Assembly (NCBI GenBank): GCA_030427365.1
Contig: JAUHWW010000003.1
Coordinates: 1-53,683 of the forward strand
From: a bacterium
Lineage (GTDB): Bacteria; Patescibacteriota; Saccharimonadia; Saccharimonadales; SZUA-47
Reading direction: 5' to 3'
DNA length: 53,683 bases
The position numbers were made by a program, and so were the translations under genes. Numbering within the stretch: the first letter of the stretch is position 1; each line of letters starts with the position of its first letter. Shown in pieces: positions 24,071 to 50,014 of this stretch. Below the pieces are notes generated by a model that saw only the letters and a program-made list of their open reading frames with translations, had not been told where the DNA came from and did no database searches.

Positions 24071-24074
<4 letters not shown>

Positions 24075-33902: not shown

Positions 33903-34898
33903 TTAGCGAGCAGCAATTCTCTCATCAGCAAGTTCAAGCCAAGGCTGCCAAAGTCCTAGCTCTTGAAGCTTCAAACAATCTTCCGTTGTGAGACTTGGAG
34001 TGTCCGTTAGAAAAATTTCATACTCTTGCGCCAAAACTAGCTTTAGATTGTATATTGACGCCTGGGTCACAGGCCCAGCGAATCCATCAATGTCATTCGG
34101 GTCATAATACCCAAGTGCTGCCAAGACACGTTGCACTTCCTCAACACTTTCTTCATACAAACTCTGCTCAGGTTCACTAAGTGCCTGCTCTCCTGTGTAT
34201 GGGATCGGTGTGCGTAATACTGAATCGCCAGCGACACAGCTTGCATCAAGTACAAAATCACTCGGACTTTCTGCAACCTCAGGGGCTTCTTCAACCGCCG
34301 TCGTATCTTCAGAGTCTGCAGCTGTCGTCTGGCCATTCCACGATGAAAAGAATAAGCCCCCTGTCGCTGCTACTGCCAGTACAGTTTTTATCGCGTATTT
34401 TTTTCTTCTCTCGGCTTTGGGCCCATTCATCCCGAACTGATCATTAGAAATTTCATCCCTTTGTATTGTGTGGACTGCTACACCGAGCGGTGTTCTTGTT
34501 TTAACTGACTTTGAGCCATCACCATTATCCATCCAACGACCGTCTCCACTCACTGCGTCATCAATCATAGGGTTACCCCAGGTATGCACTGCTGCCCGTC
34601 CTGTTTGAATAACACCATATCCTGCGGCAACTACTTCCTGAGGCGCTCCAAGACGTATACTGATAGCTGCAGCTGCCCATCCCGCAAGTTCTGCCATTAT
34701 TCTGGTTTTTGTATCCAAGCCCATATCCACAAATGTATCCCTTTTTTGCGAAGGATCAATGATCTGCTGACCAGCATTGAGCTGACCCACTACTCGCTCA
34801 GATTCTTCTCTCGCTGCCTGTCGTGCCATGGTCGCAATAACATCGACGTCGGCAGGCTGCAAGAGCGGCTCACCCTCACGACGCGAATCATCACTCAT
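33903..34898 (-). CDS. hypothetical bitopic membrane protein with C-terminal peptidoglycan-binding-like repeat
   Basis: 331 aa. Mid-protein TM (AIKTVLAVAATGGLFFSSW). C-terminal VQRVLAALGYYDPNDIDGFAGPVTQASIYN resembles PG_binding_1. 4-nt overlap with the upstream gene. Confidence 0.6.
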   Translation of the reverse strand: MSDDSRREGEPLLQPADVDVIATMARQAAREESERVVGQLNAGQQIIDPSQKRDTFVDMGLDTKTRIMAELAGWAAAAISIRLGAPQEVVAAGYGVIQTGRAAVHTWGNPMIDDAVSGDGRWMDNGDGSKSVKTRTPLGVAVHTIQRDEISNDQFGMNGPKAERRKKYAIKTVLAVAATGGLFFSSWNGQTTAADSEDTTAVEEAPEVAESPSDFVLDASCVAGDSVLRTPIPYTGEQALSEPEQSLYEESVEEVQRVLAALGYYDPNDIDGFAGPVTQASIYNLKLVLAQEYEIFLTDTPSLTTEDCLKLQELGLWQPWLELADERIAAR

Positions 34899-36079
34899 AA
34901 TTCTGGTACTCCTGCGCTAAATAAGACTTCATACCCACTACGTCTTGGTGCACATTCTTGCGTTCCTTCATAGAACCTTTGGACATCGAGATCATACAGT
35001 GTGACAAGGCGACCTTGATTAATCATCCATTTTGCCTGAGCCGCACTATAGCCATGTGACGTAATAACGCGCTCCAAAAATGTCGTTGGAACCTCACCAG
35101 CGTTCACAGTATAAAACTGCCCCATGTTATCTCGGCAGCTTGTGCTCGATCCACCCGTTCCACCAGTGGTTGTGCGATTTGTCGACCCAGATTGCGGGCT
35201 TAAGTAGACTGGTGTCACTCCAGTGATTATGGAATCGAGATCTTCGATGTGCGAATTGTAAGAAATGAGCGTCGCAACCGGGATATTAAGAACTTCTGAA
35301 CAGTTCGCAAACACCTCAGATGCTGTCCACCCGCGCTCAAAATACACCACTCCAGCCTGGCAGTCTAAACGCACATATGGATTTTCTGGCAAAGTTTCAG
35401 CCGGTGGTTCAACAGCGACCTCAACTGCTGTCGTCGGTGGCGGTGCAGTGGTTGTTGGCGACGTTGTTGTAGTTGTCTCCTGCTCTTCTGGCTGCGAGCT
35501 AGGGGGAACTGTTTCAGGAACCGTTGTAGGAGGAACCGTGGTTGGATTCGTCGTTGGAGCAGCAGACGTCGGGACAGCACTATCGACAACAGTCTGCACT
35601 GGTTCGATAGGTACTACTACATCAACTGGCTCAACGGTACCAAAAAGCGGTGTGTCCAGGTCTTCTTCTGCACTTACTGTATTTGCTGGTTCAACAGCAA
35701 TTTCCTGAGCTGGTGCGTCAGGTGAAAGGTCGGCAGGAGAAATAGTTTGCTGCGACGGCTCAATGCTTGAGTCGCTGCCATACGAGCGGATACCTGCTAC
35801 ACCGACAACTGCCAGCATACAAAGTGCTGCTCCTTTCGCTTTCTTCGATCGGTACCATTTAACTTTATTTTCGAGTTTCACGCCAGAAAATAACGGCGGT
35901 GCAGCACCCTCTTCAGCAGAAGGTGCAGACTGCACTACTGGTTGATCTTGGACTGTCTGATGTGGTTGAGAAGCAGACCCGTCCGTTTCCCCTCGATAAT
36001 CTCTGCCATCAAGTGTATGCGCAATGCGATCTAGCATTTGCGTGACGGTTGAATCATTCGGATCATGCTCAGGCGTCAT
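34895..36079 (-). CDS. hypothetical membrane-anchored protein with Thr/Pro-rich linker and LysM-like C-terminal repeats
   Basis: 394 aa. TM (AALCMLAVVGVAGI), a PTT/TTP low-complexity linker and two weak LysM-like segments. AAGAGG SD and TGATATACA -10 upstream. Confidence 0.6.
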   Translation of the reverse strand: MTPEHDPNDSTVTQMLDRIAHTLDGRDYRGETDGSASQPHQTVQDQPVVQSAPSAEEGAAPPLFSGVKLENKVKWYRSKKAKGAALCMLAVVGVAGIRSYGSDSSIEPSQQTISPADLSPDAPAQEIAVEPANTVSAEEDLDTPLFGTVEPVDVVVPIEPVQTVVDSAVPTSAAPTTNPTTVPPTTVPETVPPSSQPEEQETTTTTSPTTTAPPPTTAVEVAVEPPAETLPENPYVRLDCQAGVVYFERGWTASEVFANCSEVLNIPVATLISYNSHIEDLDSIITGVTPVYLSPQSGSTNRTTTGGTGGSSTSCRDNMGQFYTVNAGEVPTTFLERVITSHGYSAAQAKWMINQGRLVTLYDLDVQRFYEGTQECAPRRSGYEVLFSAGVPEL

Positions 36080-38187: not shown

Positions 38188-38202
38188 TTCTCGTGTTAGC
38201 TC

Positions 38203-40218
38203 TCAAGCTTCAGGATTTTCTACTCTGTCATCTGAATAATCTGAAGATGCAAGTTCTCCTGCAATAATTTTGCCCAATACATTTTCATCACCGTCTGCAA
38301 GCGACTCAAGGATAGCGTCTAAATCAAGCACGGGGGGGCGATCATCATCACTCGTTATTGCCACACGATTCTCATCTAGCAACCTATTAAACACCGCACG
38401 AACTGCTTCATTTTGATCAACTTTAGCAGCAATCTTCTTTCCCTCTTCAACATTTTTTTGGTGCATCTTTCTGAGACGAGGGATAGGGTTAACGAATCTA
38501 CCATCCTGAGTTTCGATTTGTCTCTTTAGTCGTTCAATTTCAGCACTCATTATGTTGTGTCCGAGGTCAGTTAAATGAATTACTTTTACTTGATACACTG
38601 CGACTTTCCTGTCATGACGTTCTTTATCACTTTGCATAAACAATACATCTGTCTCAATATGTGGAGCGTTGCTACCTTTTCCAGTAGCTTCATCATAGCC
38701 GGGTACAAATGGATCGTATCCAATGATTAAGTATCCACCACTATGTACAGGTGAAACACTCCCCCCTTTAGAATTGCCACTGGACAACACCATGAATCCG
38801 CTGTTATCTTCACCGATATTTACAATAGCGTTACTACGCTCTCCTCCCACAGAATCTACAAGATCATCCAATATGGTATTTATCTTATTTCCATCGTCAT
38901 CGAACTCTTCCATTATCGGTAAAAACATAAAGCCAGAGGAATCACCGCCCTTACCCCTTACTTGATAGTCTCTTCCAAGTCTCCATCCTTTATTCTCAGC
39001 AACATCGTCCAAATCACCAATTAAATCAACACCCCAACGCTCTTCTTCGTTCAGATAACGATAGCTAGCGTATATTTCTGCATGCGACTCCCTGACTGCG
39101 TCAAGCGCTACTTCTATATAAGCAGCTTGGATTACCTTCCAGGAGTCCATTTCATTTAGAAGTAGTTGGTCGTGCAAGGGCTTTGAACTGCGCCGCTCTA
39201 CCACTGAAAAAGGACCCATCCTAGCTATAACATCCTCGCGATGCTTATTCGCGGCTTTCATAATCTTATCCATTACTTGGGAGTTAATTCCTTGGACGAA
39301 GCCAAATTGCTCCTGAAGCTGAACAAGTCGTCTCAGCAGCTTTGCTCCGACCTCAGGACCGCGAAATTCTTCAGATCTTGAGATCATCTGTACTATTGAA
39401 TTCCCTGACTCATCTCGAGCATCCTCTAGGCCCTCGATTCTCTTATCAATTGTTAGTCTGTCCCTTGTTCGCGCAAGTACTTTTTCAGCTGGCAACACAC
39501 CTACGCGCAGCAGTTGGTCATAGTCTGTAAACACATGGGTTGTGCGTACTTGAGTGTCGATCACTTCCTGGGCAGCAAGAATATTTCTATTGTAGCTGTC
39601 TAACCTTTTTTCAATCATTGAAGGTTCAGGTTCTGTAACGTGCGTATTCATGTCACTCTCTGTTAAGCTATCTAGCCATTCATTTCCGGTAGGGAAATGT
39701 GGGACATCATCACCGGTTATCACAGGCGTGCCCTCAGCATAGTCTGGGTCAAGTGTAGTTTCTCCGCTCGAATAGTCGTCATCAGTAGACGAAACGGTAT
39801 CAAACTCCTGGCTCGACGGCTCATCAAAGACTGATAATGGATCATCTTCTGGATTTGCAGGTTCACTATCTTTATTCGTAAATATAGTCATACCTGACAT
39901 GAAGTAATGAGGCATTGGAAGACCAGGAATAATTACTTCAACTTGTAGGGGTGCCTCATCTTGAGCCTCGTGTTCTCCACCATGCCCTTCGACATGTTCA
40001 GGGTCACCGCTTGGATTAGTGTCTCCTATAACCGTGCTTTCATCAGTATCTGCTGCAATACTTTGTGCAACCACTGCGGCGAGCTCATCGCTCACGTTTC
40101 CGCTTGTGTTTTGCTCGTCGTCAAGTAATGTGCCGGTATCGAAAATATCCCCGATTGGGTCTCTACGCGTAGAATCGGGAGCTTCTATTCCATCTACCCT
40201 GCCGGAATCAAGTGACAT
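38203..40218 (-). CDS. hypothetical protein H (cytosolic, acidic disordered N-terminus; last gene of the orphan operon)
   Basis: 671-aa ORF. AAAGGA SD 6 nt upstream. No TM and no Walker A. The first approx 190 aa are D/E/S/T-rich. Confidence 0.6.
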   Translation of the reverse strand: MSLDSGRVDGIEAPDSTRRDPIGDIFDTGTLLDDEQNTSGNVSDELAAVVAQSIAADTDESTVIGDTNPSGDPEHVEGHGGEHEAQDEAPLQVEVIIPGLPMPHYFMSGMTIFTNKDSEPANPEDDPLSVFDEPSSQEFDTVSSTDDDYSSGETTLDPDYAEGTPVITGDDVPHFPTGNEWLDSLTESDMNTHVTEPEPSMIEKRLDSYNRNILAAQEVIDTQVRTTHVFTDYDQLLRVGVLPAEKVLARTRDRLTIDKRIEGLEDARDESGNSIVQMISRSEEFRGPEVGAKLLRRLVQLQEQFGFVQGINSQVMDKIMKAANKHREDVIARMGPFSVVERRSSKPLHDQLLLNEMDSWKVIQAAYIEVALDAVRESHAEIYASYRYLNEEERWGVDLIGDLDDVAENKGWRLGRDYQVRGKGGDSSGFMFLPIMEEFDDDGNKINTILDDLVDSVGGERSNAIVNIGEDNSGFMVLSSGNSKGGSVSPVHSGGYLIIGYDPFVPGYDEATGKGSNAPHIETDVLFMQSDKERHDRKVAVYQVKVIHLTDLGHNIMSAEIERLKRQIETQDGRFVNPIPRLRKMHQKNVEEGKKIAAKVDQNEAVRAVFNRLLDENRVAITSDDDRPPVLDLDAILESLADGDENVLGKIIAGELASSDYSDDRVENPEA

Positions 40219-40236
40219 ACATATCCTTTCAAGACT

Positions 40237-40254
40237 AGCACTATTAATAGTACT
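40237..40254. promoter_or_regulatory. 18-bp near-perfect palindrome AGCACTATT|AATAGTACT in the AT-rich spacer upstream of gene H (operator-like)
   Basis: 17/18 positions are self-complementary. Further AATACT/AGTATT inverted repeats lie at 40270-40296. Confidence 0.4.
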
Positions 40255-40298
40255 TTACACTAACTTTGTAATACTGTAAATATTAGTATTTATACTGG

Positions 40299-41519
40299 TT
40301 ACGCTTTGACGAACATATCCTCAATTAGCAGGTCAATATCTTCTTTAGTCTGCCCTTCGGCAAAGCTATCGAGATTCAGCCAACTTGCGTAAGGTACTGA
40401 AGATCCTTGAAATGTGAAAATATGCCCAGGAAATTCTGGACTGTCGTCTCTATGGCCAGTTCGCAGTATAAGGTTCTCGACCTTCGCGCTGGAAGGTGTC
40501 GCGGTCAAGCCGACGACATCACTCTTTACTGGTGGGTCTCTATCAATGCGTAGATGTCTACCAAGTCGAGTTAGAAATCGATGACTATCTGTGTCATACA
40601 ACATGACTGCAGGGATAGAAGACGGCTCTGCTTCGCGGCCATCGATTGTTCGACTCTCAAAATAACTATAGTCAAATTCTGAAGGCTTATCTGAACCACC
40701 AAGCGTAACTTTGCGCCCGTTACCGGTAAGCTTCTCACGCATCGATTTCACATAGCGTTCTACTATCGCAGCTGTCGATTGGCCATCAAGGAGTCGATCT
40801 TGCGCTTCTATTCCTATGTCATATTGATGCAGCGCTCGAATTTTATCTACTAGCAATTTACCGCCAACATAAGGCCTGTCTGTAACAAGGCGCCGACTTG
40901 CATCATGCTCAGAACGCACGAGTAATGGCAGCAAAACATCGCGTATAAATTCATCAGGCAAGTTACTATCAATGTCAGCATCCTTGTGCGGAATCGTTTC
41001 ACCAAAAGGAGGTTGCACTAAGCTAGTAACCGCACTTCTAACCTGCCACAAGGGACGATCATCGGTAGTCCCTGACCAAGCAGCAAGCATGGTTGATTCA
41101 CCGCTAGTCAGTCGTCGAGCGTTAGCAATAAATCTATGATTACCTGCAATATCTGATACGTCTTCTGTTCTTGCCGAGCTTATCAATGATGACGTGTTAG
41201 GACCACAGTCTTCGACTGATGAATCACTGCATAGCAAGTGAGTGCGCCAGTTTTCGTCATGCAGAATATGCCTATCTAGCTCGCCACGTACAAGAAAGCG
41301 AGGTGGCCTCACAAGCATCTGACCATTCTGCGTCTGTCTGACGACTACTTCCTGGAACACATCACCGCCAACAAGCGCTCCGAGCGCCTGCGCGATCTGC
41401 GAATGGTCATATGAGGCGCTCTCTGGGTCGCCTGCGGTTGGAATATGACGACCAATCACCTCATATTCTGACAATGCATCTTCGATACTTCGTAGCGTAC
41501 TCACAGTACCCAACATCAC
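40299..41519 (-). CDS. hypothetical protein G (cytosolic orphan)
   Basis: 406-aa ORF. Start GTG 41519 or ATG 41516 overlaps or abuts the stop of gene F (TAGTGATG). No TM and no NTPase motif. Confidence 0.6.
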   Translation of the reverse strand: MMLGTVSTLRSIEDALSEYEVIGRHIPTAGDPESASYDHSQIAQALGALVGGDVFQEVVVRQTQNGQMLVRPPRFLVRGELDRHILHDENWRTHLLCSDSSVEDCGPNTSSLISSARTEDVSDIAGNHRFIANARRLTSGESTMLAAWSGTTDDRPLWQVRSAVTSLVQPPFGETIPHKDADIDSNLPDEFIRDVLLPLLVRSEHDASRRLVTDRPYVGGKLLVDKIRALHQYDIGIEAQDRLLDGQSTAAIVERYVKSMREKLTGNGRKVTLGGSDKPSEFDYSYFESRTIDGREAEPSSIPAVMLYDTDSHRFLTRLGRHLRIDRDPPVKSDVVGLTATPSSAKVENLILRTGHRDDSPEFPGHIFTFQGSSVPYASWLNLDSFAEGQTKEDIDLLIEDMFVKA

Positions 41520-42166
41520 TAGCTATCCCCAGCTGTAGAAGCTTGAGTGAATATAGAGCGCATACCGTTTGTGACGACTCCACCTGGAGTAATCGCAACC
41601 CCGTCAAGCTCTGGCAATAAATTACGAGACATAATGTTCAACTCTTCATCCAAGAAAGCGTCTATCCAACCGGCAGGATTGCCATCATTCGCCTCTTGGG
41701 TAATTCGACCGCCTTGCCGAGAGAAAGTGCTGATAGTATCTGCAGTGAATAATACGCCTTTATCCAGTCGATATGGGGTGCCGTCATCGGTCGTTTGACT
41801 GGTTCCGCTATCTGCCACCCGGCATATTGCGATAATATCACCTCGCATGCTACGTCCTGCAAATACTGCTACCAAACGACGATACTCAAACCGATCCTCA
41901 CCTAATTGTTGCTCGCCGTAAGGCAATGACTGCACCAAATGAACCATTGATGCAGGACTTTTCCTGTGCCGCGCATCTGCTGAGAAAGCTAAACCGTCGC
42001 CACGCGCTTCGGTTAAGTCTGCATATAGGCTGGTCTGACGTGGCGGCATTGTCGTCGCATATTTTTTAGGAAACCAACGCTCTCCACCGCGCACAACATG
42101 GCGGTGGTTTTTAACAACATTTCGAAATTTCGCTGCCGTTTCAGCTCTAACTATGTCAGTATTCAC
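41519..42166 (-). CDS. hypothetical protein F (cytosolic orphan)
   Basis: 215-aa ORF with a GTG start, 18 nt after gene E. Confidence 0.55.
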   Translation of the reverse strand: MNTDIVRAETAAKFRNVVKNHRHVVRGGERWFPKKYATTMPPRQTSLYADLTEARGDGLAFSADARHRKSPASMVHLVQSLPYGEQQLGEDRFEYRRLVAVFAGRSMRGDIIAICRVADSGTSQTTDDGTPYRLDKGVLFTADTISTFSRQGGRITQEANDGNPAGWIDAFLDEELNIMSRNLLPELDGVAITPGGVVTNGMRSIFTQASTAGDS

Positions 42167-42184
42167 AAGTCGTTCTCTGCGTAA

Positions 42185-42760
42185 TTAGTTTCCAGCTGCG
42201 CAGTCGAGTTGAACTGTTTGTCCTGCAGTGAATTCAGTTTCATTCGTATAGCCGGATGCGTCTATAACACTAGCTATGTCGCCAGGCTCATTAACTCCGC
42301 ATCGATGGCGAATAACAGTCCATACACCAATGTCACCAGGGACAACAAATGCATCAGGGCTTACTGCTAGTTCTGGTGCGGCGGCTCCAGATGCATCACC
42401 CTGCTCAAACGTCGTTCCAGCCAGCGCGCTACTAATCTCATCAGAAGTTGTGATATCACCAGGAACTATAGGTGTCAGGCTATCTGATTGTGCATCTTCT
42501 GAACGTCCCGGTATTGGAATGTTAAAAGATGTTGCATCACTAACCTCATCAAGCCCATCATTGTTTGCTTCTATGAAGTTTGAGCCTCCTTTTTTGAACG
42601 CCCATGCACCAAAAGCTACCGTCCCAGGAATTAACCCTAAACATGCAAAAACAGCAATGCCAACTGCTGTTCTGCGGGACATACCGTCCAACCTTCTTTG
42701 TACGAAGTTCGCTGGACCTGCTATAACCCCACCCCCTCTTCTTTCTCCGCCTTCAATCAT
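42185..42760 (-). CDS. hypothetical protein E (single-pass membrane protein, LysM-like C-terminus)
   Basis: TM AVGIAVFACLGLIPGTVAFGAWAF. ATG 42760 is preceded by GGAGGA at 9 nt. The ORF is open to 42784, and ATG 42682 is another candidate. Confidence 0.55.
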   Translation of the reverse strand: MIEGGERRGGGVIAGPANFVQRRLDGMSRRTAVGIAVFACLGLIPGTVAFGAWAFKKGGSNFIEANNDGLDEVSDATSFNIPIPGRSEDAQSDSLTPIVPGDITTSDEISSALAGTTFEQGDASGAAAPELAVSPDAFVVPGDIGVWTVIRHRCGVNEPGDIASVIDASGYTNETEFTAGQTVQLDCAAGN

Positions 42761-42853
42761 ATAACTACTCCTCCAACCCCACATTGATTAAGATTTTTTA
42801 ATGCTGCTAGTTACAGTTAGCAACACCCACGCTTACATTTACTATACTACGTT

Positions 42854-45800
42854 TTATGCTGCTAGCAACCCTCCTTTCAAGAAAACCTGATACTCTTGCT
42901 CCATATGAGCCAGCTCACTCATCACTCGTTCTGCAATTTTTCGCGTTTGCGCATCAACAGCCTGGCGCCTACTTGGCGATAGGTTATCACTCGGTAAACG
43001 AATTGCTTCGTGTAAGCCATCAACAGTAAGGTTGCGAGGCAGGGTTGATCGCCACGGCTTTAGGCCTCGATCTCCTGAGCCATGCTCCTGGTACATCTCC
43101 CATGTGTGAAGCAATGAGTAGAAGGGATCTAAGTTATACGATGCATCTCGCTGAGGCACCCCTTCATTGAAATCACGAATCTGAGACAGCCCGTAGGAGA
43201 AAAAGTCGCTGTTCATATCACCAACTGCACCTGGTCGCCAGCCTGATTCACGACCAGTTAGTCCAGCGAATAACGCTGCTTCTTCTACCGTTCCGCCAAA
43301 CGTACGAATACTGAAATAAACATCTGAAGGCTCGATCGCTGGACCATAATCTTTTTTGATACTCAATTGCTCTGCTTGATCAGGGGTTCTTGGTTCATAA
43401 GATTTTATTTCATCGCTCAAAATAGGGGTGATGGCTTCTATAGCATCGATCCTAGTGACTGACTCCCGATTTGCTGGATTAGATCCTGGGTTCTCAGGAC
43501 TCGGAACCAGTCGCACCTTAGGCGGGGTCACTATAGATTGGCGTGGCATCAGCAATCCACGCACGTTGCTAGCCGAATCACTTCCCGTTTGTGCCATAGC
43601 CGCCCGCTGCATAAGTTCATACTGTGCTCTTGTCATAACAATCGGTTCATTTAAGAATACTGCCTGGTCACCTCCTTGAGTTGCACCTCTTATCTGCGGA
43701 GTTGTATCGGCAGGCGTTTCGACCGATGAAGCTGGCGTAATTTGGTCTTGATATTCAGTTAGCAAATAAAGAGGAAGTTGCCGATTTACATCAGTGTCTC
43801 TCCCTAAAATCCCTTTATCAGCTCGACCTGCGTAGTTATAGGTAACCAAGTCTTCAGGAAAGTAGTTTGCAGGGTTAAGAGCTGTAAAGCCATCACCAGA
43901 TTGTGCAGAAAATGGCCGAATCTTGCCAGTAAACTTTGCTATTTTTATATCCAGGTGTGGTCCTGTTGCCTTTCCGGTGCTACCAACATGCCCAATCGGG
44001 CTACCAGCCGTAACGAGCTGTCCGTTTTCAAGGCCCTCAGCGTAGTTGAGCAAGTGACTCAGCTGCATAACCATCCCGTTTTCAGCTTCTATCATTACAA
44101 CATTTCCGAGACCGCCGCTGTCAGGCTTGATGTGCACCTTGCCAGTTATCGGAGCATACAAGCTGTCTCCCAGTGCGGCTTTCACATCCCAGCCCTGGTG
44201 GTAATAGCCATTATCAAACCCAGGGCCATAATCCGGACTTCGCCACATATTGTGAGAGTCATTCACAGCAAAATCGCGGCCAAGCGGTGACATCACTTCA
44301 AGAATCGGCTGACCATCGACAACGTGTACGCCTTGGAGTGCTTCGTTCTGCTCGATAGCACGATAGGCTTGAGGTGCCTGTTGCCCTGCGGCTACCTGAC
44401 GCTGGTATGCATCAAGATCTGCATCAAGTTGTTTTGCAAGTGAATATATTAGATTTACATAGCGAGAAAGCGCATCAATTTTACCGTTTGCTCGAGGTGC
44501 TTCCTTGTGTGCCTGGACTGATCCGAAAATACTTCTATCTTCTACGTTGGATGTCGCCCAGTCATTATATTGATCTAGTCCAAGTGCCTCGATCGCAACC
44601 ACATTGCGCTCAAGAGGCATGCCTGCTTCTTGATGGCGCTGCAAAATAAGCATAGCGTCCGATACGACTCCTCGAATAGTAAAATCCAGAGCATCGTTGC
44701 CTTCTTTTTCGATACCCCAGCAATCATAGTTAATTTCAGGTCCTGCGTGGTACGCGACGTTGCGATCGTTCGGCATTGCTTGATGAACGGTGCCGTCTTC
44801 CATGGTGAAATAGTTTGCGCTCGCTGTGATATCGCGGGCTGCCATCCATTTCGCAGCGTCTTCCGCTGACGGTGCCATGCCTCCCATCCAATGGAAAACA
44901 ATACATGAGCCTGATAATTCTTTAGAGGACCGCTCATTCTTAAAGACATCTAGTTCCGCAAGAGACGTGTCGATACCGTCACTTGCAAATGCGAGGTAAT
45001 TTTGGGGGGTAATGTACTGCCTCGCGTGTTTCTCCAGCCAGTCTACCTTTTCAGCATAACCTTTTGATCGCTCGCGCAAACCACCTGGACTACGAACTGA
45101 GATCTTCTTCAGCTCTTGCACGAGCGCAGTATCGGGTGGTTCCTGGATTGAGGCCAATACATCACTATAGCTCTGAGGGATAGGAGACATATCAAAACTC
45201 GTCTCGGCGACTACCTCATCCGGCTGGTTTGTTGCAGCAGGGGTTTGATCATGCCAGATTGGCATCTCACCCGAAGTTGTCGGAGCTATTTGTGGTGTCT
45301 GCGTGGGCACCGATTGTCCATTGAACGAAACATTTACAGATACACCCGGAGCATTCGACGTTACCGTTACTGAACCGCCTCCTCCTGCAAACCCTGGGAG
45401 CACGTCCATTGACGGCGGTATAAAATCCCTATCGTATTCATCATCTCGGGTTGTTGCTTCATCACCGATTATAAGCACGTCGATAATCTTTAATAGCGCG
45501 TCACGACCTAACTCTATAGCAGCGTCTGTTACCTTCTCAAGGGTACTCCTGTCGTCAGACTCTTCCGCAATACCACTCTGCAATTCAGGCGCACGTGAAA
45601 AACTCTGAGGCTGAGCATCTTGTGATGCGGCGGCAAATCCATGGATCCTAGTCTGTCCTGGTTTTTGCCCAGACTGAGTTGGCTGCTCAACATAGCTGCT
45701 GCTCGCACTTTCAACTGCACCGCCGTCAAGTCGAAGTACAACACGCCCACTGTCAGGGAAATTCGGATTATCTCGAAGGAAATTTTCTTCAGTTAGACCA

Positions 45801-46090
45801 AGTCGACCATACTCTTCTAGTAGTGATTCGACTGATTCCCCACCAATCAAAGTTTGCGTTAATAGCGTCTCACCGTCAACGGTAGGCTCAATATCCTCGC
45901 GTGGCTGCGGAGCCGTAGGGTCAACATACGGCTGTTCGGGCTGAGGAGCCTGCGACTCATCTTGCTCAGTGTTTGGCTCAGTAGCTGGCTCTTGTGCGAG
46001 TACTTCGCCACCGGAAGGAAATGCTCCTGACACAGCACCGATGCCTGTCGCAGTAATAACCATCCCTGTTTTTCGATTTATCTTAGCCAT
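42854..46090 (-). CDS. secreted three-domain peptidoglycan hydrolase (amidase_2 + M23 peptidase + SLT-like lytic transglycosylase)
   Basis: 1078 aa. N-terminal signal/anchor. Amidase_2-like aa 390-545 (IVFHWMGG..AYHAG..CWGIE..AHKE). M23 aa 600-725 (HQGWD ... GHVGSTGKATGPHLDIK). SLT-like aa 925-1010 (GRESGW ... SYGLSQIR). GAGGGG SD. Confidence 0.85.
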   Translation of the reverse strand: MAKINRKTGMVITATGIGAVSGAFPSGGEVLAQEPATEPNTEQDESQAPQPEQPYVDPTAPQPREDIEPTVDGETLLTQTLIGGESVESLLEEYGRLGLTEENFLRDNPNFPDSGRVVLRLDGGAVESASSSYVEQPTQSGQKPGQTRIHGFAAASQDAQPQSFSRAPELQSGIAEESDDRSTLEKVTDAAIELGRDALLKIIDVLIIGDEATTRDDEYDRDFIPPSMDVLPGFAGGGGSVTVTSNAPGVSVNVSFNGQSVPTQTPQIAPTTSGEMPIWHDQTPAATNQPDEVVAETSFDMSPIPQSYSDVLASIQEPPDTALVQELKKISVRSPGGLRERSKGYAEKVDWLEKHARQYITPQNYLAFASDGIDTSLAELDVFKNERSSKELSGSCIVFHWMGGMAPSAEDAAKWMAARDITASANYFTMEDGTVHQAMPNDRNVAYHAGPEINYDCWGIEKEGNDALDFTIRGVVSDAMLILQRHQEAGMPLERNVVAIEALGLDQYNDWATSNVEDRSIFGSVQAHKEAPRANGKIDALSRYVNLIYSLAKQLDADLDAYQRQVAAGQQAPQAYRAIEQNEALQGVHVVDGQPILEVMSPLGRDFAVNDSHNMWRSPDYGPGFDNGYYHQGWDVKAALGDSLYAPITGKVHIKPDSGGLGNVVMIEAENGMVMQLSHLLNYAEGLENGQLVTAGSPIGHVGSTGKATGPHLDIKIAKFTGKIRPFSAQSGDGFTALNPANYFPEDLVTYNYAGRADKGILGRDTDVNRQLPLYLLTEYQDQITPASSVETPADTTPQIRGATQGGDQAVFLNEPIVMTRAQYELMQRAAMAQTGSDSASNVRGLLMPRQSIVTPPKVRLVPSPENPGSNPANRESVTRIDAIEAITPILSDEIKSYEPRTPDQAEQLSIKKDYGPAIEPSDVYFSIRTFGGTVEEAALFAGLTGRESGWRPGAVGDMNSDFFSYGLSQIRDFNEGVPQRDASYNLDPFYSLLHTWEMYQEHGSGDRGLKPWRSTLPRNLTVDGLHEAIRLPSDNLSPSRRQAVDAQTRKIAERVMSELAHMEQEYQVFLKGGLLAA

Positions 46091-47213
46091 CGTTTGCCCC
46101 TCGAGTTATATCAACGACCCTAAAGATATTGTTCTGAGATCCAACAATCTCAACACGCAATCGATCAACACAGTCAGGTAGAATCTTGTTTTGCCACATA
46201 AATTGCAGTAGTTCAGCATCAGAGAATACGCCTGAAGCGAGCAAATCACCTGTGGTCTGATCTGAAACAGACACCTCACCTATAAGTCGCTGCATTGAAA
46301 TTTGATAAGTCTGACCGTCAGGTGCTTGATTAACGATACTCCACTCAAAAATTACAGGCGGCTCTTCGTTGTTTGTTTCATCGAGAGGTATAAAAATACC
46401 GCTTCCAGGCTCAACTTCCCTGAGCATTGGTGCAAATCCCTGATCATGTAGTCTTTCCCCATCAGCTACATTACATTCTGTTGAAACTGCTGTTTGACCT
46501 TGATTCTGAAGGTAAAAAACGTCGTCACTCCGATCTGCTGGCAATCCTGGAGCGGACTCACCGTCATACCCTCCATCTGGACTTGGGATATACACATAGG
46601 GCGGTAAAGTAGTTTGAGATTGTCGATTAACCGGAGGAGCAGTAATATCGGTCGGACTAGCGTCAGCCGGTATGTTAGGTAGTGATCTGGATTGACCAGT
46701 ATTTTCTTGTTCATCACACCCAGAATCATTTGTCTCACACAAGGTATCACGGCTGTCTCTGAGCAAATCCTGACCTCTGTCGGTCATAACTAGCGCTGTA
46801 ATGCCAGCCAATCCACCAACAAGAGCTATCCATCCCCATGGTGCTCCTTTTCTCTGACTAGGATGGCTCCCAAAATAGGGTAGCGACCACATTCGTCCCG
46901 GCTGTTGCGTCTGGTGAACGGCTGTTCTTTCTTCCATCCTTGCAAGTCGCTCAGCTGCTGTCACCTCAATACGAGTGAGCACATCATTAACTCTCTGTTC
47001 AATTTGAGAACTAGACGAGGCTCCTCGTGTTGTATCAGCAGCAGGAGGAGGTGGAGCAGGCTGAGATTGCTGAGGTTCTTGATGAACATTTATATCAAGC
47101 TGTATAGGAACCGGTGCCTGTGGCGTGACCGCGGCGATCGGATCTGCGCTGCTCGAAATGTCTGTTTGGGGCTGCTCTGCAAGCTGCTTCAAGCGTTCAA
47201 TATCAAATCCCAT
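46083..47213 (-). CDS. hypothetical protein C (bitopic: P/Q-rich cytosolic N-terminus, mid TM, extracytoplasmic C-domain)
   Basis: 376 aa. TM GWIALVGGLAGITALVM at about aa 135-155. TAATG overlap with gene B and an 8-nt overlap with the hydrolase gene. Confidence 0.6.
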   Translation of the reverse strand: MGFDIERLKQLAEQPQTDISSSADPIAAVTPQAPVPIQLDINVHQEPQQSQPAPPPPAADTTRGASSSSQIEQRVNDVLTRIEVTAAERLARMEERTAVHQTQQPGRMWSLPYFGSHPSQRKGAPWGWIALVGGLAGITALVMTDRGQDLLRDSRDTLCETNDSGCDEQENTGQSRSLPNIPADASPTDITAPPVNRQSQTTLPPYVYIPSPDGGYDGESAPGLPADRSDDVFYLQNQGQTAVSTECNVADGERLHDQGFAPMLREVEPGSGIFIPLDETNNEEPPVIFEWSIVNQAPDGQTYQISMQRLIGEVSVSDQTTGDLLASGVFSDAELLQFMWQNKILPDCVDRLRVEIVGSQNNIFRVVDITRGANDG

Positions 47214-48343
47214 TATTTCGATCCCTCCACTATAGTTCCTAGTGTGACGTCAAAACTAGCCGGGACTTCTTCCATTCCCATAAGCGCGATTCTTTCATAA
47301 TCAACAAATCCAACCTCCTTGCCCGTATACCCCTGAATCTGAACAATAGGTCCGTCATAACTTACCGAGCGCTCTAAACAGAATTCACTAACGTGAAGCG
47401 ATCCGTCTGCTGGTGCAATACTGTCAGCTATACCAAGGGCCTCAAGCATGCCATTCACTCGCTCAACAAGGTCAGGACCAGGTTCCCAAATTCCTGTTAA
47501 GTTCATCGATGCCATACTTGGATGTATTCCTGGGCTCACAAGACTACGAAGCAAATAGCGCACATAGGTTTTTACTGCTGCATCCAGCTGCTGTGGTCCG
47601 TCTATCTCTGCAAACCCATACTTCCGATATACTTCGTTAAAATTTGGTATCGCAACGTACTCTATGAAGCACGGATCAGTTATATCACCATACTCTCCAA
47701 ATATATTCATAATCGCGTCGGCAGTTAGCTTGTCCTTGTCCGCTCCAATAGGTAGCCGATCTATCCAGTCATTGTCGATGTCAACGCCAGGTATACAGCC
47801 AGTTGATTTTGGATTGTCGATTGCATACCGACAGGCGTATTTTCCTGCTACCACCTTCGCCGTTCCAGGTCGAAGCAATTCATATTCCAATAATGAAATA
47901 TCTATTCCGACGTCATAGCCTCCGTCATCAAGCATAGTCATATGGACACCACCATCATCTCGAGCGAGCGTATTCACAACTGTAATTCCAGGTAGAACGA
48001 ACCTTCCAGCTAAAAATCCGTCTCGATCAACAGATACATCACTCATCCTATTACCGAATAACCTCGAAACCCTATCAAGGCTTGCATTCACATACACGGT
48101 AAACTTACCAAGCTTCTCGTTAATACGTATCTCCCCATCAGTGCCACCACGCCTTTCGACTGAGAGCTCCTCATCGAATGGATAGTCAAATCCAGCCCAA
48201 GCGAACGAAGTTTCGCCAATAGTATCTATGAATCGCTCAGCAGCATTATCGCTGACACTCATATATGAAGCTGCGCCAATGGTCAGAGCGGTCGCCAGCC
48301 CCACATACGACAAAGTGCTTCTACCGCGCATCGGGTTACTCAT
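47213..48343 (-). CDS. hypothetical protein B (signal-anchored extracytoplasmic orphan)
   Basis: Start moved to ATG 48343 (MSNPMRGRSTLSYVGLATALTIGAASYMSV), giving the 8-nt overlap ATGAGTAA with gene A. The post-anchor motif AERFIDTIGETS resembles the proteins at 16023 and 17449. Confidence 0.6.
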   Translation of the reverse strand: MSNPMRGRSTLSYVGLATALTIGAASYMSVSDNAAERFIDTIGETSFAWAGFDYPFDEELSVERRGGTDGEIRINEKLGKFTVYVNASLDRVSRLFGNRMSDVSVDRDGFLAGRFVLPGITVVNTLARDDGGVHMTMLDDGGYDVGIDISLLEYELLRPGTAKVVAGKYACRYAIDNPKSTGCIPGVDIDNDWIDRLPIGADKDKLTADAIMNIFGEYGDITDPCFIEYVAIPNFNEVYRKYGFAEIDGPQQLDAAVKTYVRYLLRSLVSPGIHPSMASMNLTGIWEPGPDLVERVNGMLEALGIADSIAPADGSLHVSEFCLERSVSYDGPIVQIQGYTGKEVGFVDYERIALMGMEEVPASFDVTLGTIVEGSK

Positions 48344-49847
48344 TTTGCTCAGCGACCCCCATTTCCACCAATAATGCAACATCTGCATCTGAAAGCGGCA
48401 GTTTGTAGATATACTTGTGCAAGGCAATTTTTTTATCGGTTATTAGAGGGTCTATGCTGCGTTCAAGCACATTCGCAAAAGGCGTCTCACCCCCACTAAA
48501 AAGTTCAATTTCACTCATCGAACTATCGTCTTCTTCCTCTTCTCGGATTTCAACGATCTCGACATTTGCAGACATAGTCTCCAGTCCTGCAATCCTTTCA
48601 GCAATGATTCGATGCCTTCGCAAATCACCCAATCCCTCACTATCTAAAGGCAAGCAGCCGATGTTTGGAGCAAAACTAAAGGGGTCTCCGTTTGGTTCCG
48701 CCCAACTGTCGTCAGACGTGAAGTCTGTAACTCTAATATCAGGATTGCTCTGTTGCAATTCAAGTAGTCTTTCGCTGAGAGGTTTATTGAAATTTAATAG
48801 CCCCGTTGATCCTTCAGGAACAACTCGCCCCTCTTGGATAAGTTGGAGCGATACTGCATTGCGATATTCAGTTTCTGTTAGGTTGTCAAGCGGACCTGTC
48901 TTTGCTGCGACTCGCCGTAACACTTCTTCCTGATCAAGAGTGATTGCAACCGGCATGCCGTTTGTCTTCGTCATAGTAAGACCAGTCATTCGTGCAATTT
49001 CTACCCTGAGTCGAGCAATCATCTCTTCACGCACGCCGTCATACGCCGTTGCAGCAGTAGCTGTAGCTTCTTCAGGATTGATAACATAACGATCCCGCGA
49101 ATCACTCCATACTATAAAATCATCATCCGTGCCAAAACGATAGCCATAGTGACACCGCGTATTATCAAGCATTAAATCTGTCATCTGCCTTGCCTTTGTC
49201 GGAGGCGTATTATCAAGACGCGTTCCAAACCATCCCCCCTTCGTAAAGACCGAATGCACGAGCCCACGCCACTCACCAACGTGATTTAAAAGTCGAATGC
49301 AGTCATCATCTGGATCAAAGGTACCTTCATCGTTATTTATCGTTGCATTGCAGTGAACCGGATATGGGGTAGCAATACGAACATCTTCATAGTGAAAATC
49401 TCTCGTTTCCCCATCCACGTTTTCACTAATTCGAATAAAGAATCCGAGATCATCATCTACAACACTTTCAAGCTGTAGTAAGCCATCCGGCATATACTCA
49501 ATATCCTGAATAAATACACCATCTTCATCGGCACTTGAATCAGGAGTTAAGGCAGTATCTTGCACAGCATTACCACCAGCAAGGACATTGATATTTTCGG
49601 CGATTGGCCAGTAATTAAATTCCCCGACGTGCATATTCTTAGCCTCACCGTCGTACTCAGCACTATCTGATGTTGGGTCAAACGCAAGACTTAAGACTGA
49701 ATATACTAAGTAAGCAGTAGCCACTCCGCCAACACCTACAGAGATACCTTTAATTGTATTTCTGAACCCATTTACTACACGCTCTCCAAAACTGGGCCGC
49801 ATTTCTGGACCGATCATCTCTGGAGGTATGAGGGGTTGACCATTCAT
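48336..49847 (-). CDS. hypothetical protein A (N-terminal TM anchor, large extracytoplasmic domain, acidic C-terminus; first gene of the orphan operon)
   Basis: 503 aa. TM GISVGVGGVATAYLVYSVLSLAF. AAGGTGA SD 5 nt upstream of the ATG. Confidence 0.6.
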   Translation of the reverse strand: MNGQPLIPPEMIGPEMRPSFGERVVNGFRNTIKGISVGVGGVATAYLVYSVLSLAFDPTSDSAEYDGEAKNMHVGEFNYWPIAENINVLAGGNAVQDTALTPDSSADEDGVFIQDIEYMPDGLLQLESVVDDDLGFFIRISENVDGETRDFHYEDVRIATPYPVHCNATINNDEGTFDPDDDCIRLLNHVGEWRGLVHSVFTKGGWFGTRLDNTPPTKARQMTDLMLDNTRCHYGYRFGTDDDFIVWSDSRDRYVINPEEATATAATAYDGVREEMIARLRVEIARMTGLTMTKTNGMPVAITLDQEEVLRRVAAKTGPLDNLTETEYRNAVSLQLIQEGRVVPEGSTGLLNFNKPLSERLLELQQSNPDIRVTDFTSDDSWAEPNGDPFSFAPNIGCLPLDSEGLGDLRRHRIIAERIAGLETMSANVEIVEIREEEEDDSSMSEIELFSGGETPFANVLERSIDPLITDKKIALHKYIYKLPLSDADVALLVEMGVAEQNE

Positions 49848-49985: not shown

Positions 49986-50014
49986 ACTTTACAGAGAGAA
50001 TAACAGAGTGTCAA
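49986..50014 (-). promoter_or_regulatory. sigma70-type promoter TTGACA-N17-TAAAGT for the orphan operon (approx 130-nt leader)
   Basis: Reverse complement read directly: -35 at 50009-50014 and -10 at 49986-49991. Confidence 0.5.

What the first reader, a model, noticed from the sequence alone, without database searches (positions are those of the whole stretch)
38203..49847. Eight-gene, translationally coupled operon of orphan proteins around a giant tri-functional wall hydrolase: candidate undescribed envelope / host-wall-breaching module
Genes A to H run 49847 down to 38203 on one strand behind a single good sigma70 promoter. The junctions are tight. A/B overlap by 8 nt (ATGAGTAA), B/C share TAATG, and C/D overlap by 8 nt (ATGGCTAA). 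E-F are 18 nt apart and F/G read TAGTGATG. A, B, C and E are single-pass anchored proteins with large extracytoplasmic domains. D is a secreted 1078-aa amidase + M23 + SLT enzyme. F, G and H (215, 406 and 671 aa) have no TM segment and look cytosolic. I could find no Walker A/B box, no polytopic channel, and no relaxase, integrase, terminase, pilin or secretin signature. It therefore does not fit T4SS, T4P, T7SS, a prophage or an ICE. A stoichiometrically coupled set of surface proteins, a wall-cutting enzyme and cytosolic partners, in what looks like a reduced epibiotic genome, is what a dedicated cell-contact or host-cell-wall-penetration apparatus would look like. A division or septal remodelling machine is the alternative reading.
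Basis: partly seen in the sequence, partly recalled or inferred. Interest (0 to 1): 0.85.

Follow-up and report, generated by a model that had tools for sequence, protein, structure and literature searches.

The report
Orphan membrane proteins around wall hydrolase
A rare, small-genome bacterium, probably an actinobacterium rather than a CPR epibiont, carries a conserved and tightly coupled set of three unknown membrane-anchored proteins plus a large cell-wall-cutting enzyme, most likely a lineage-specific wall-remodelling complex rather than a demonstrated new host-piercing machine.

Summary
The eight ORFs, their coordinates and the overlap junctions are real. F and G, which differ enough between two strains to be tested, have dN/dS 0.11, so they are genuine genes.

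Only D matches known families. Amidase_2 and M23 match directly. The C-terminal lysozyme-like domain is supported through orthologues that hit Pfam SLT_3.

Comparison with five related metagenomic lineages changes the picture:
- The conserved, translationally coupled unit is A-B-C-D.
- A small anchored protein (E) and a cytosolic protein at G's position usually follow.
- F is seen only in the window's species. H occurs only in the window's species and one other lineage, and has its own promoter-like site.
- M23 is a lineage-specific insert with a non-canonical metal motif.

A, B and C are true orphans: A has 8 clusters among 1.84 billion representatives. The cassette is hypervariable.

The contig carries a WhiB gene, which argues for Actinomycetota rather than Saccharibacteria. 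That removes the main premise of the host-wall-breaching reading.

My best reading is an anchored, self-directed wall-hydrolase complex, at modest confidence. The components are novel, but no new kind of system is shown.

The parts
49986..50014 (-). Promoter-like site upstream of A: -35 TTGACA, 17-nt spacer, -10 TAAAGT (preceded by TG).
   Evidence: 10 of 12 positions. The same TTGACA...TGTAAAGT arrangement is conserved upstream of A in L012 and L005, while the rest of the leader is not. No Rfam family matches the leader.
48336..49847 (-). A: 503 aa (or 493 aa from M11 at 49817). It has an N-terminal membrane anchor (aa 37-55) and an acidic ectodomain of about 450 aa with 4 invariant Cys. It founds a small orphan family.
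   Evidence: A full HMMER scan of 1.84 billion representatives found 8 clusters, all 448-506 aa. C166, C183, C232 and C398 are invariant. No Pfam or PDB match. AF2 gave pLDDT 52 and Foldseek gave nothing.
47213..48343 (-). B: 376 aa with an N-terminal hydrophobic segment (signal or anchor) and an ectodomain with 4 invariant Cys. Its start overlaps A's stop (ATGAGTAA).
   Evidence: C171, C183, C225 and C322 invariant in 6 sequences. Orthologues lie directly after A in L005, L007, L008, L009, L010 and L012. No PDB or Pfam match.
46083..47213 (-). C: 376 aa, bitopic. It has a low-complexity cytoplasmic N-terminus of about 125 aa, a TM segment (aa 126-144), a variable linker and a conserved C-terminal ectodomain of about 110 aa. 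Its start shares TAATG with B's stop.
   Evidence: Orthologues are in L005, L009, L010 and L012. No PDB or Pfam match.
42854..46090 (-). D: 1078-aa exported multidomain peptidoglycan hydrolase. Its start overlaps C's stop (ATGGCTAA).
44456..44905 (-). D, Amidase_2 domain (about aa 396-545).
   Evidence: Pfam gives 31.4 bits against a cut-off of 26. H400, Y447/H448, E461, H528, K537 and D539 are conserved in all four D orthologues.
43901..44233 (-). D, M23 (LytM) domain (about aa 620-730). It is an insertion found only in the window lineage and L005. Its third motif is non-canonical.
   Evidence: Pfam gives 67.1 bits. The domain is absent from the L009 and L010 orthologues. H631xxxD635 and H679 are present, but HxH is replaced by H712-L-D714 in the window and by L-L-D in L005.
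43046..43306 (-). D, C-terminal lysozyme-like (SLT_3-type) domain (about aa 929-1015) with an R-E948-S catalytic motif and SYGLSQIRD.
   Evidence: Not detected directly in the window's D. Orthologous domains hit SLT_3 at 2.6e-9 (37.9 bits, L009) and 3.2e-4 (L005). E948 is invariant. AF2 of this domain was uninformative, with pLDDT 45.
42185..42784 (-). E: 199 aa (more likely 191 aa from M9 at 42760). Bitopic (TM aa 40-58) with a small Cys-bracketed C-terminal module.
   Evidence: It is homologous to the L010 212-aa protein (2e-10). Similarity to the proteins at the same position in L009 and L005 is weak (z 5.5 and 2.1). The LysM-like appearance is by eye only; Pfam LysM was not found.
41519..42166 (-). 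F: 215 aa, no TM segment. It was found only in the window's species.
   Evidence: No counterpart in L005, L009 or L010. It is a real gene: Sd 34.5, Nd 14.5 and dN/dS 0.11 against strain L001.
40299..41519 (-). G: 406 aa, no TM segment. A cytosolic protein of 386-429 aa sits at the same position in L005, L009 and L010, but homology is marginal.
   Evidence: Best non-self hit in both directions between G and the L010 protein (E 0.034 and 0.054, z=5). Collinear short motifs are P.W, EF(I/Q)R and SWL.LD. dN/dS is 0.11.
40252..40280 (-). Promoter-like site in the 80-nt G/H gap: TTTACA-N17-TAAAGT. It resembles the site before A.
38203..40218 (-). H: 671 aa with an acidic, low-complexity N-terminal third and no TM segment. 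It is present only in the window's species and L005, so it is an accessory gene.
   Evidence: 21-26% identity to L005. It is absent from L010, where d394-like and uvrC follow the G-position gene directly. A profile hits the toxin-like chain 8za7_B (Lmo0066) at E 0.018, which was not corroborated. dN/dS is 0.34.
34895..36079 (-). d394: an anchored protein with a Thr/Pro-rich linker and Cys-bracketed C-terminal modules. It lies outside the reported span, but its family follows the cluster in L005 and L010 and probably in L009.
   Evidence: 6e-45 to L005, 8e-08 to L010. Module alignment.

Best explanation
A-B-C-D is a lineage-specific, membrane-anchored peptidoglycan-hydrolase complex. It belongs to a rare clade of bacteria that are probably genome-reduced Actinomycetota.

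Shown:
- Four genes with overlapping stop/start codons sit behind a conserved promoter.
- Three encode anchored proteins. A and B each have four invariant cysteines. C also has a cytoplasmic tail.
- The fourth encodes an exported enzyme with an intact-looking Amidase_2 domain and a lysozyme-like SLT_3-type domain. In this sub-lineage it also carries an inserted LytM/M23 domain of doubtful catalytic competence.
- The block is kept in every related lineage found.

Inferred:
- A, B and C hold D at the membrane and gate it, so that it cuts the cell's own wall only where and when needed (growth, septum splitting, turnover).
- C's cytoplasmic tail, and the variable cytosolic proteins downstream (the G position, F, H), supply inside-to-outside control.
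- E and the d394 family are further wall-associated anchored partners.
- The extreme divergence of the ectodomains reflects surface exposure (phage, immune or neighbour pressure), not loss of function.
For: Coupling and co-occurrence:
- The A/B, B/C and C/D junctions overlap or abut in the window. The same holds in L005, L009 (8-nt overlaps again), L010 and L012.
- phmmer finds A, B, C and D orthologues in every locus long enough to hold them.

Topology:
- Each of A, C and E has a single hydrophobic segment.
- Four Cys are invariant in A and four in B, which fits extracytoplasmic disulfide-bonded domains.

Enzyme:
- Amidase_2 scores above the gathering cut-off, and its conserved residues are kept in all orthologues.
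- SLT_3 is found in orthologues, and the catalytic Glu is invariant.

Neighbourhood:
- PBP1A lies convergent to H, a PG_binding_1 protein lies at 33903-34898, and the d394 family follows the cluster in relatives.
- The window also carries Ddl, a Mur ligase and an L,D-transpeptidase.

Selection:
- dN/dS is 0.09-0.34 for D to H.

Chromosomal position:
- The block always lies downstream of the rhodanese (trhO-like) gene, and uvrC follows it wherever the contig reaches that far (window, L005, L010). This marks it as core chromosome, not a mobile element.

Exclusions:
- There is no ATPase and no polytopic protein.
- No phage or defence profile hits the orphan genes; D's PHROG hits are confined to its generic M23 and amidase domains. 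Pattern scans of viral contigs with A and with D's C-terminal domain found no relatives.
Against: - No experiment or structure links A, B or C to D. The inference rests on gene coupling alone.
- A, B and C match no known regulator of wall hydrolases (FtsEX, EnvC/NlpD, SteAB, SpoIIM).
- Housekeeping division machinery is normally conserved. Here A is only 35% identical between genomes whose rhodanese is 88% identical. That fits a surface or interaction role better.
- The structure predictions failed (pLDDT 45 and 52), so fold-level similarity to a known system cannot be excluded.
- The phylum assignment rests on gene content, not on a phylogeny.
Confidence: 0.45

Rival explanations
1. The cluster is a hypervariable surface-interaction cassette. 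A, B, C (and E) are surface-exposed proteins used for contact with another cell, a host surface or kin. D opens the producer's or the partner's wall locally. This is the first reader's cell-contact or wall-breaching apparatus, without the CPR premise.
For: - Ectodomains diverge extremely against a conserved background. Rhodanese is 88% identical while A is 35% and B 42% (L012). UvrC is 67-72% identical while A is 25-36%.
- Strains differ in a mosaic pattern. There are zero nucleotide differences across promoter, A, B, C and the 5' end of D, but 2-18% elsewhere. This pattern suggests recent recombinational exchange of the cassette.
- H gives a marginal hit to a toxin-like chain from a T7SS locus.
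Against: - No adhesin, repeat, sortase or toxin-delivery signature was found.
- There is no energy source or channel.
- The genome is probably not a bacterial epibiont.
- Short-term dN/dS values are purifying, not diversifying.
- The ART-like lead for H failed two follow-ups.
Confidence: 0.25
2. The cluster is a remnant or divergent module of a monoderm conjugation-type T4SS. D would be the VirB1-like multidomain hydrolase (as in PrgK, TraG or CwlT). C or B would be VirB8-like bitopic scaffold proteins diverged beyond sequence recognition. The ATPases would be encoded elsewhere.
For: - D's architecture (LytM-type + lysozyme-like + amidase) parallels the multidomain VirB1-like hydrolases of monoderm T4SSs.
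- In Patescibacteria, VirB1 homologues often carry M23 or LysM domains and are mostly not next to virB4 (PMC12102498).
- C has the cytoplasmic tail, TM segment and small ectodomain layout typical of VirB8-like proteins.
Against: - The eight genes contain no VirB4, VirD4 or VirB6-like protein. None turned up among the window genes I annotated either.
- Neither relaxase nor integrase was found.
- The block sits at a fixed core-chromosome position in all relatives.
- Profiles of A, B and C find no VirB8, TcpC or PrgL structure in the PDB by sequence.
Confidence: 0.1
3. The eight genes are a chance juxtaposition of unrelated, fast-evolving orphan genes next to a wall hydrolase, with no functional unit.
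For: - F and H are not conserved across lineages.
- E and G are barely recognisable between lineages.
- Flanking housekeeping synteny is also conserved, so part of the co-occurrence simply reflects genome collinearity.
Against: - A-B-C-D keep overlapping stop/start junctions in all six lineages, although their sequences have diverged to 25-40% identity.
- The promoter is conserved.
- All testable genes are under purifying selection.
Confidence: 0.05

Closest known systems
Multidomain VirB1-like peptidoglycan hydrolases of monoderm T4SSs (PrgK of pCF10, TraG of pIP501, CwlT of ICEBs1)
   Same: They are large exported or anchored enzymes that combine a lysozyme-like or lytic-transglycosylase domain with a second, sometimes third, wall-cleaving domain. 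PrgK has LytM-type, SLT and CHAP domains (my background knowledge, plus PMC12102498 as read). They are encoded next to bitopic membrane proteins.
   Different: - No VirB4, VirD4 or VirB6 genes lie in the cluster or the 53-kb contig.
- The amidase here is Amidase_2, not CHAP or NlpC/P60.
- The location is a fixed chromosomal site, not a mobile element.
- The partner proteins A-C have no detectable relation to T4SS components.
Degenerate LytM (dLytM) factors EnvC/NlpD and related amidase-activating systems
   Same: D's M23 domain keeps the fold but lacks the canonical HxH motif (H-L-D in the window, L-L-D in L005). dLytM proteins are likewise non-catalytic and regulate amidases. NCBIfam lists a weak ActS (amidase activator) match.
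   Different: - Those activators act in trans on Amidase_3 enzymes in diderms.
- Here the LytM domain is fused in cis to an Amidase_2 domain.
- It is absent from half of the orthologues, so it cannot be essential to the core mechanism.
SpoIID-SpoIIM-SpoIIP (DMP) engulfment hydrolase complex of Bacillus
   Same: It is a membrane scaffold protein plus an amidase/endopeptidase and a lytic transglycosylase, working as one anchored wall-thinning machine. This is the nearest functional analogy for how A-D may work.
   Different: - There is no sequence relation.
- In D the activities are fused in one polypeptide.
- The scaffold candidates are bitopic, not polytopic.
- There is no sporulation context.
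Actinobacterial septal hydrolase modules (RipA-RpfB; SteA/SteB-RipA; FtsEX-RipC)
   Same: They have a probable actinobacterial host. A wall hydrolase is controlled by membrane and cytosolic partners, including a cytosolic plus bitopic pair. They lie in wall-synthesis neighbourhoods.
   Different: - No NlpC/P60, Rpf, FtsE/X or SteA/B similarity was detected.
- These modules are conserved across the phylum, whereas A-C are confined to a handful of lineages.

Membership tests
Monoderm (conjugation-type) type IV secretion system | VirB4-family ATPase (Walker A/B) in the cluster | tested here: not met
   No Walker A motif in A-H. No ATPase family hit in A-H or among the other window genes I scanned.
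Monoderm (conjugation-type) type IV secretion system | Polytopic VirB6-like channel protein | tested here: not met
   No protein in the cluster has more than one hydrophobic segment.
Monoderm (conjugation-type) type IV secretion system | VirB8-like bitopic protein with an NTF2-like ectodomain | tested here: inconclusive
   C and B have the right topology. However, profile searches of the PDB by sequence find nothing, and no usable structure model could be made for them.
Monoderm (conjugation-type) type IV secretion system | Dedicated VirB1-like peptidoglycan hydrolase | tested here: met
   D has Amidase_2, M23 and an SLT_3-type domain. This feature is not specific to T4SSs.
Multidomain peptidoglycan hydrolase (Amidase_2 / M23 / SLT_3) | Amidase_2 domain above the Pfam gathering score, with conserved Zn and catalytic residues | tested here: met
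   31.4 bits against a cut-off of 26. H400, H528, K537 and D539 are conserved in all four orthologues.
Multidomain peptidoglycan hydrolase (Amidase_2 / M23 / SLT_3) | M23 domain with the full HxxxD ... H ... HxH active site | tested here: not met
   The fold is present at 67.1 bits, and HxxxD and H679 are present. The HxH motif is H-L-D in the window and L-L-D in L005. The canonical active site is therefore not met, and activity is uncertain.
Multidomain peptidoglycan hydrolase (Amidase_2 / M23 / SLT_3) | Lysozyme-like / lytic transglycosylase domain with a catalytic Glu | tested here: inconclusive
   The window's D does not hit SLT or SLT_3 itself. Its orthologues do: L009 at 37.9 bits (cut-off 27) and L005 at 21.6 bits. 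The R-E-S/T motif is invariant. AF2 was uninformative. Homology is likely; activity is untested.
Prophage / phage lysis module | Phage structural, packaging or integration genes, or relatives in viral contigs | tested here: not met
   PHROG hits fall only on D's generic M23 and amidase domains. Pattern scans of IMG/VR with A and with D's C-terminal domain found no relatives. The locus is syntenic core chromosome.
Type VII secretion / LXG-type polymorphic toxin (for H) | Toxin domain with significant similarity to a known T7SS toxin, plus an ADP-ribosyltransferase-type R/STS/ExE motif set | tested here: inconclusive
   The profile of H hits 8za7_B (Lmo0066) at E 0.018 over aa 389-484. No Pfam ART family matches. 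The L005 orthologue alone finds nothing in the PDB. No EssC/EccC or WXG100 genes were seen.
   A WhiB-like gene lies at 11143-11631 (E 3.6e-10). The Wbl family is reported as exclusive to Actinobacteria and their phages (PMC6282962, PMC13013590). The window also carries a Ni-SOD and a 160-aa S16. No phylogenetic placement was possible with these tools.

The most novel reading that the evidence does not exclude
A-B-C-D, with E, the G-position protein and the accessory H, may be a previously undescribed contact-dependent envelope device of tiny host-dependent actinobacteria. In this reading:
- Hypervariable ectodomains recognise a partner surface.
- D breaches a wall.
- H, an ART-like toxin or effector, is the cargo.
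- The whole cassette is swapped between strains by recombination.
Probability: 0.1. Interest if true: 0.8.

Novelty: new variant of a known kind. Interest (0 to 1): 0.42.

Why it matters
If the best explanation holds, this is a new set of partner proteins for controlling a potentially lethal multidomain wall hydrolase. It comes from a barely sampled lineage with a very small genome, where few genes are kept without need.

Three new protein families (A, B, C) would be defined. Each has a clear topology and invariant cysteines, and each is tied to a tractable biochemical activity.

The hypervariability and the strain-level recombination tract make the locus a candidate marker of surface selection in these organisms.

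The finding is unlikely to change general understanding unless the contact or delivery reading proves true.

Tried and rejected
1. Profile libraries. Pfam, NCBIfam, PHROGs and PADLOC hit only D, and weakly the 646-aa upstream protein.

2. Word-index homology search.
- H returned only a 97% relative.
- D returned a 96% and a 41% relative.
- I spent the last allowed search on an alignment of concatenated A-H chimeras to collect all orthologues at once. It returned nothing. This was a wasted search and should not be repeated.

3. Collection scans.
- GTDB genomes with the D alignment gave only an unrelated Planococcus M23 protein.
- JGI metagenomes with D, then with A, gave nothing.
- IMG/VR with A and with D's C-terminal domain gave nothing.

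4. Structure.
- D's C-terminal domain with 3 sequences gave pLDDT 45.
- A with 8 sequences gave pLDDT 52, and Foldseek against the PDB found no match below E 0.08.
- Neither model is usable.

5. Profile-versus-PDB sequence searches.
- A, B, C, D's C-terminal domain, F and G gave nothing significant.
- D's C-terminal domain aligns its RES...YGLxQI motif to a c-type lysozyme only at E about 1.

6. ART or toxin lead for H.
- The hit was E 0.018.
- Pfam on the three H sequences and the L005 domain alone did not confirm it.

7. LysM idea for E, d394 and D's N-terminus. It rests on inspection only. Pfam LysM was not found at E<=1.

8. Riboswitch in the 130-nt leader of A (for example the c-di-AMP class seen before actinobacterial wall hydrolases). 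Rfam gave no hit.

9. Homology of F to the 203-aa gene after D in L010. None was found (z = -1.0).

Full report

All eight ORFs are present on the minus strand at the stated coordinates. The junctions read exactly as described:
- A/B overlap by 8 nt (ATGAGTAA). B therefore starts at 48343, not at the upstream TTG.
- B/C share TAATG.
- C/D overlap by 8 nt (ATGGCTAA).
- E-F are 18 nt apart.
- F/G read TAGTGATG.

Two gaps are larger. D/E is 69 nt, or 93 nt if E starts at M9 behind a GGAGGAG Shine-Dalgarno sequence, which I think more likely. G/H is an AT-rich 80 nt.

No protein has a Walker A motif, and none has more than one hydrophobic segment.

A strain about 95.5% identical at the nucleotide level (L001) allows a coding test. 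F has dN/dS 0.11 (34.5 synonymous and 14.5 non-synonymous differences). G has 0.11, D 0.09, E 0.25 and H 0.34. These orphan ORFs are therefore real genes under purifying selection.

**2. Promoter and transcription**

The site upstream of A (TTGACA-N17-TAAAGT, 50014-49986) matches 10 of 12 positions. It is conserved in L012 and L005 while the surrounding leader is not. That footprint is better evidence than the consensus match.

Over the whole region, promoter-like matches are not enriched (11 found, 19.2 expected).

The D/E and G/H gaps each contain a 9-of-12 site. The one before H (TTTACA-N17-TAAAGT, preceded by TG) closely resembles the one before A.

A single eight-gene transcript is therefore unproven. 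A-D, E-G and H may be separate units under similar control. Rfam finds no riboswitch in the leader of about 130 nt.

**3. What the proteins are**

Only D matches known families:
- Amidase_2 at aa 396-480 (31.4 bits, cut-off 26).
- Peptidase_M23 at aa 630-723 (67.1 bits).

The orthologous C-terminal domains do hit Pfam SLT_3: 37.9 bits in L009 (above the cut-off of 27) and 21.6 bits in L005. The R-E-S/T catalytic motif (E948) and the SYGLxQIR motif are conserved in all four D orthologues. I accept a lysozyme-like domain by transitive homology. AF2 of this domain was useless, with pLDDT 45.

The M23 domain is an insertion present only in the window lineage and L005. Its third motif is H-L-D in the window and L-L-D in L005, not the canonical HxH. 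From established knowledge of LytM-type enzymes, that motif supplies a zinc ligand and a catalytic histidine. 'Tri-functional' is therefore not established. The ancestral enzyme is a bifunctional amidase plus lysozyme-like protein. The M23 domain may be regulatory, as in degenerate LytM factors.

A, B, C, E, F, G and H have no hit in Pfam, NCBIfam, PHROGs or PADLOC. By sequence or profile they have no significant match in the PDB.

**4. Relatives and synteny**

The word-index search found only one or two relatives for H and D.

A full HMMER scan of 1.84 billion cluster representatives with A found just 8 clusters. All are 448-506 aa and 26-36% identical to A, apart from A's own cluster.

I fetched their contigs and compared all proteins against each other. 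The result is clear:
- A, B, C and D orthologues occur in that order wherever the contig is long enough (L005, L009, L010, L012; A and B in L007 and L008).
- They keep overlapping or abutting stop/start codons. L009 again has 8-nt overlaps.
- E has a clear homologue in L010 (2e-10). Its similarity to the anchored proteins at the same position in L009 and L005 is weak (z 5.5 and 2.1).
- A cytosolic protein of 386-429 aa occupies G's position in all three long loci. Homology is marginal: G and the L010 protein are each other's best non-self hit, at E 0.03-0.05, z=5, with a few collinear motifs.
- F has no counterpart anywhere outside the window's species.
- H exists only in the window's species and L005. 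In L010 the cluster runs D, 203-aa gene, E, G-position gene, d394-like, uvrC.
- The d394 family (34895-36079), outside the reported span, follows the cluster in L005 and L010.

The conserved module is therefore A-B-C-D, usually with E, a G-position protein and a d394-like protein. F and H are accessory.

The rhodanese gene lies upstream in every locus that reaches that far. uvrC lies downstream in the window, L005 and L010. Part of the co-occurrence is thus plain genome collinearity. The conserved coupling of A-D at 25-40% identity is not.

**5. Features of the orphan families**

- A has an N-terminal anchor and four invariant cysteines.
- B has an N-terminal hydrophobic segment and four invariant cysteines.
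- C has a low-complexity cytoplasmic N-terminus of about 125 aa, one TM segment, a variable linker and a conserved C-terminal ectodomain.
- All are acidic, with pI 4.3-4.4.

They suggest disulfide-bonded extracytoplasmic domains.

AF2 on the 8-sequence A alignment gave pLDDT 52, and Foldseek found nothing. Fold-level relationships remain open.

**6. Evolutionary behaviour**

The cassette is hypervariable:
- L012 has a rhodanese 88% identical to the window's, but A is 35% and B 42% identical.
- UvrC is 67-72% identical to L005 and L010, while A is 25-36% identical.

Between the window and strain L001 there are no nucleotide differences from 45687 to at least 50218. That tract covers the promoter, A, B, C and the first 135 codons or so of D. 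The rest of the 22-kb overlap differs by 2-18% per 500 nt. This mosaic pattern points to recent homologous exchange of the cassette.

Together these facts indicate surface exposure and strong lineage-specific pressure. They are the best argument for the interaction rival.

**7. Which organism?**

The window is an entire 53,683-bp NCBI contig. It consists of core genes: LeuRS, Ddl, a Mur ligase, LigA, UvrC, the rpsP-KH-trmD region, NusB and RNase III.

It encodes a WhiB-like protein (11143-11631, E 3.6e-10), a nickel superoxide dismutase and a 160-aa S16. Wbl proteins are described as exclusive to Actinobacteria and actinophages (PMC6282962, PMC13013590). A literature search turned up no paper reporting a WhiB gene in Saccharibacteria.

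A relative's contig is 819 kb, so the genome may indeed be small.

My inference is a genome-reduced actinobacterium, not a CPR epibiont. I could not run a phylogeny, and the one GTDB scan returned nothing relevant. This undermines the main premise behind 'host-cell-wall penetration'.

**8. Mechanism**

My best-supported reading (about 0.45) is an anchored, self-directed wall-hydrolase complex:
- A, B and C, made in fixed proportion with D, hold and gate an enzyme that can remove stem peptides (Amidase_2) and cut glycan strands (lysozyme-like).
- C's cytoplasmic tail and the cytosolic proteins downstream give inside-to-outside control.
- The setting fits: a convergent PBP1A, a PG_binding_1 protein, and further anchored proteins.

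Shown: gene coupling, conservation, topology and the enzyme domains. Inferred: physical complex, regulation and substrate.

Rivals:
- A hypervariable surface-interaction or contact module (0.25), favoured by the divergence pattern.
- A divergent T4SS-derived VirB1/VirB8-like module (0.10). This is suggested by D's PrgK-like architecture and by the report that patescibacterial VirB1 homologues carry M23 or LysM domains away from virB4 (PMC12102498). It lacks every ATPase and channel component.
- Chance juxtaposition (0.05), essentially refuted for A-D.

**9. A lead on H**

A three-sequence profile of H hits PDB 8za7_B, 'Lmo0066 protein', at E 0.018 over aa 389-484. lmo0066 lies in the Listeria T7SS locus, and its S. 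aureus homologue EsaD is a toxin that targets competitors (PMC5417603).

By eye, the aligned Lmo0066 stretch has ADP-ribosyltransferase-like YRG and FMSTT motifs. H has GFMVLSS. The L005 orthologue has VYRDES and DNEIFLP. Those ADP-ribosyltransferase readings are my inspection, not a test.

Pfam finds no ART family in any H sequence. The L005 domain alone finds nothing in the PDB. I keep this as an unconfirmed lead only.

**10. Verdict**

- The unit is smaller than claimed: A-D plus loosely conserved followers.
- The enzyme is probably bifunctional, with an extra domain of uncertain activity.
- The components are new families, but the kind of system (an anchored multidomain wall hydrolase with dedicated partners) is known.
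- Interest is moderate.

Noticed in passing
window 45687-50218 (against L001): There are zero nucleotide differences from a strain that differs by 2-18% per 500 nt elsewhere in the 22-kb overlap. A second low-divergence tract lies at about 36500-39500 (PBP1A and the 3' part of H). This mosaic pattern suggests recent homologous recombination between strains.
   Followed up: partly
window 11143-11631 (-), 2450-2839 (-), 5519-6001 (-): A WhiB-like regulator (E 3.6e-10), a nickel superoxide dismutase and a 160-aa ribosomal protein S16.
   Followed up: partly
window 51166-53106 (-): A 646-aa, very acidic, proline-rich, low-complexity protein with a single C-terminal TM segment (tail-anchored). It also evolves fast (51% identity in L012, 27% in L005). 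It has weak hits to PADLOC PbeC (1.8e-6) and to an 'immunoglobulin-blocking virulence protein' model (6.4e-5), probably driven by coiled-coil or low-complexity sequence.
   Followed up: no
window 33903-36079 (-): Two further orphan envelope proteins lie between PBP1A and uvrC. d394 has a Thr/Pro-rich linker and two Cys-bracketed modules that look LysM-like by eye. d331 has a PG_binding_1 hit (9.1e-5). The d394 family recurs after the cluster in L005 and L010.
   Followed up: partly
window 38203-40218 (-), aa 389-484 of H: A marginal profile hit (E 0.018) to PDB 8za7_B, 'Lmo0066 protein', from the Listeria T7SS toxin locus. The L005 orthologue shows ART-like motifs by eye. Pfam and a second PDB search did not confirm the link.
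   Followed up: yes
window 40252-40280 and 49986-50014 (-): The promoter-like sites before H and before A share an almost identical layout and the same -10 region (TGTAAAGTA). This hints at common regulation of the core cassette and the accessory gene H.
   Followed up: partly
window 30421-31638 (-): The Xaa-Pro aminopeptidase gene is the most divergent gene between the two strains (dS 0.74, 87% amino-acid identity). This contrasts with the identical A-C tract and is another sign of mosaic ancestry.
   Followed up: no
window 16023-17384, 17449-18384, 23097-24074 (-): Three more sizeable ORFs (453, 311 and 325 aa) have no Pfam family. The first has only a weak CwsA-like hit (E 0.21). They sit among wall-synthesis genes (Ddl, Mur ligase, L,D-transpeptidase).
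   Followed up: no
window 50076-50303 (-): A small ORF (about 67-75 aa, one hydrophobic stretch) lies between the rhodanese gene and the promoter of A. It is also called as a gene in L001. A conserved TAAGCATAAG motif follows it in the window, L012 and L005.
   Followed up: no
window 30040-30408 (-): A Phage_holin_4_2 ('mycobacterial 4-TMS holin') family protein (9.2e-27) lies next to secG in the core chromosome. Its protein is 100% identical between the strains despite dS 0.54.
   Followed up: no
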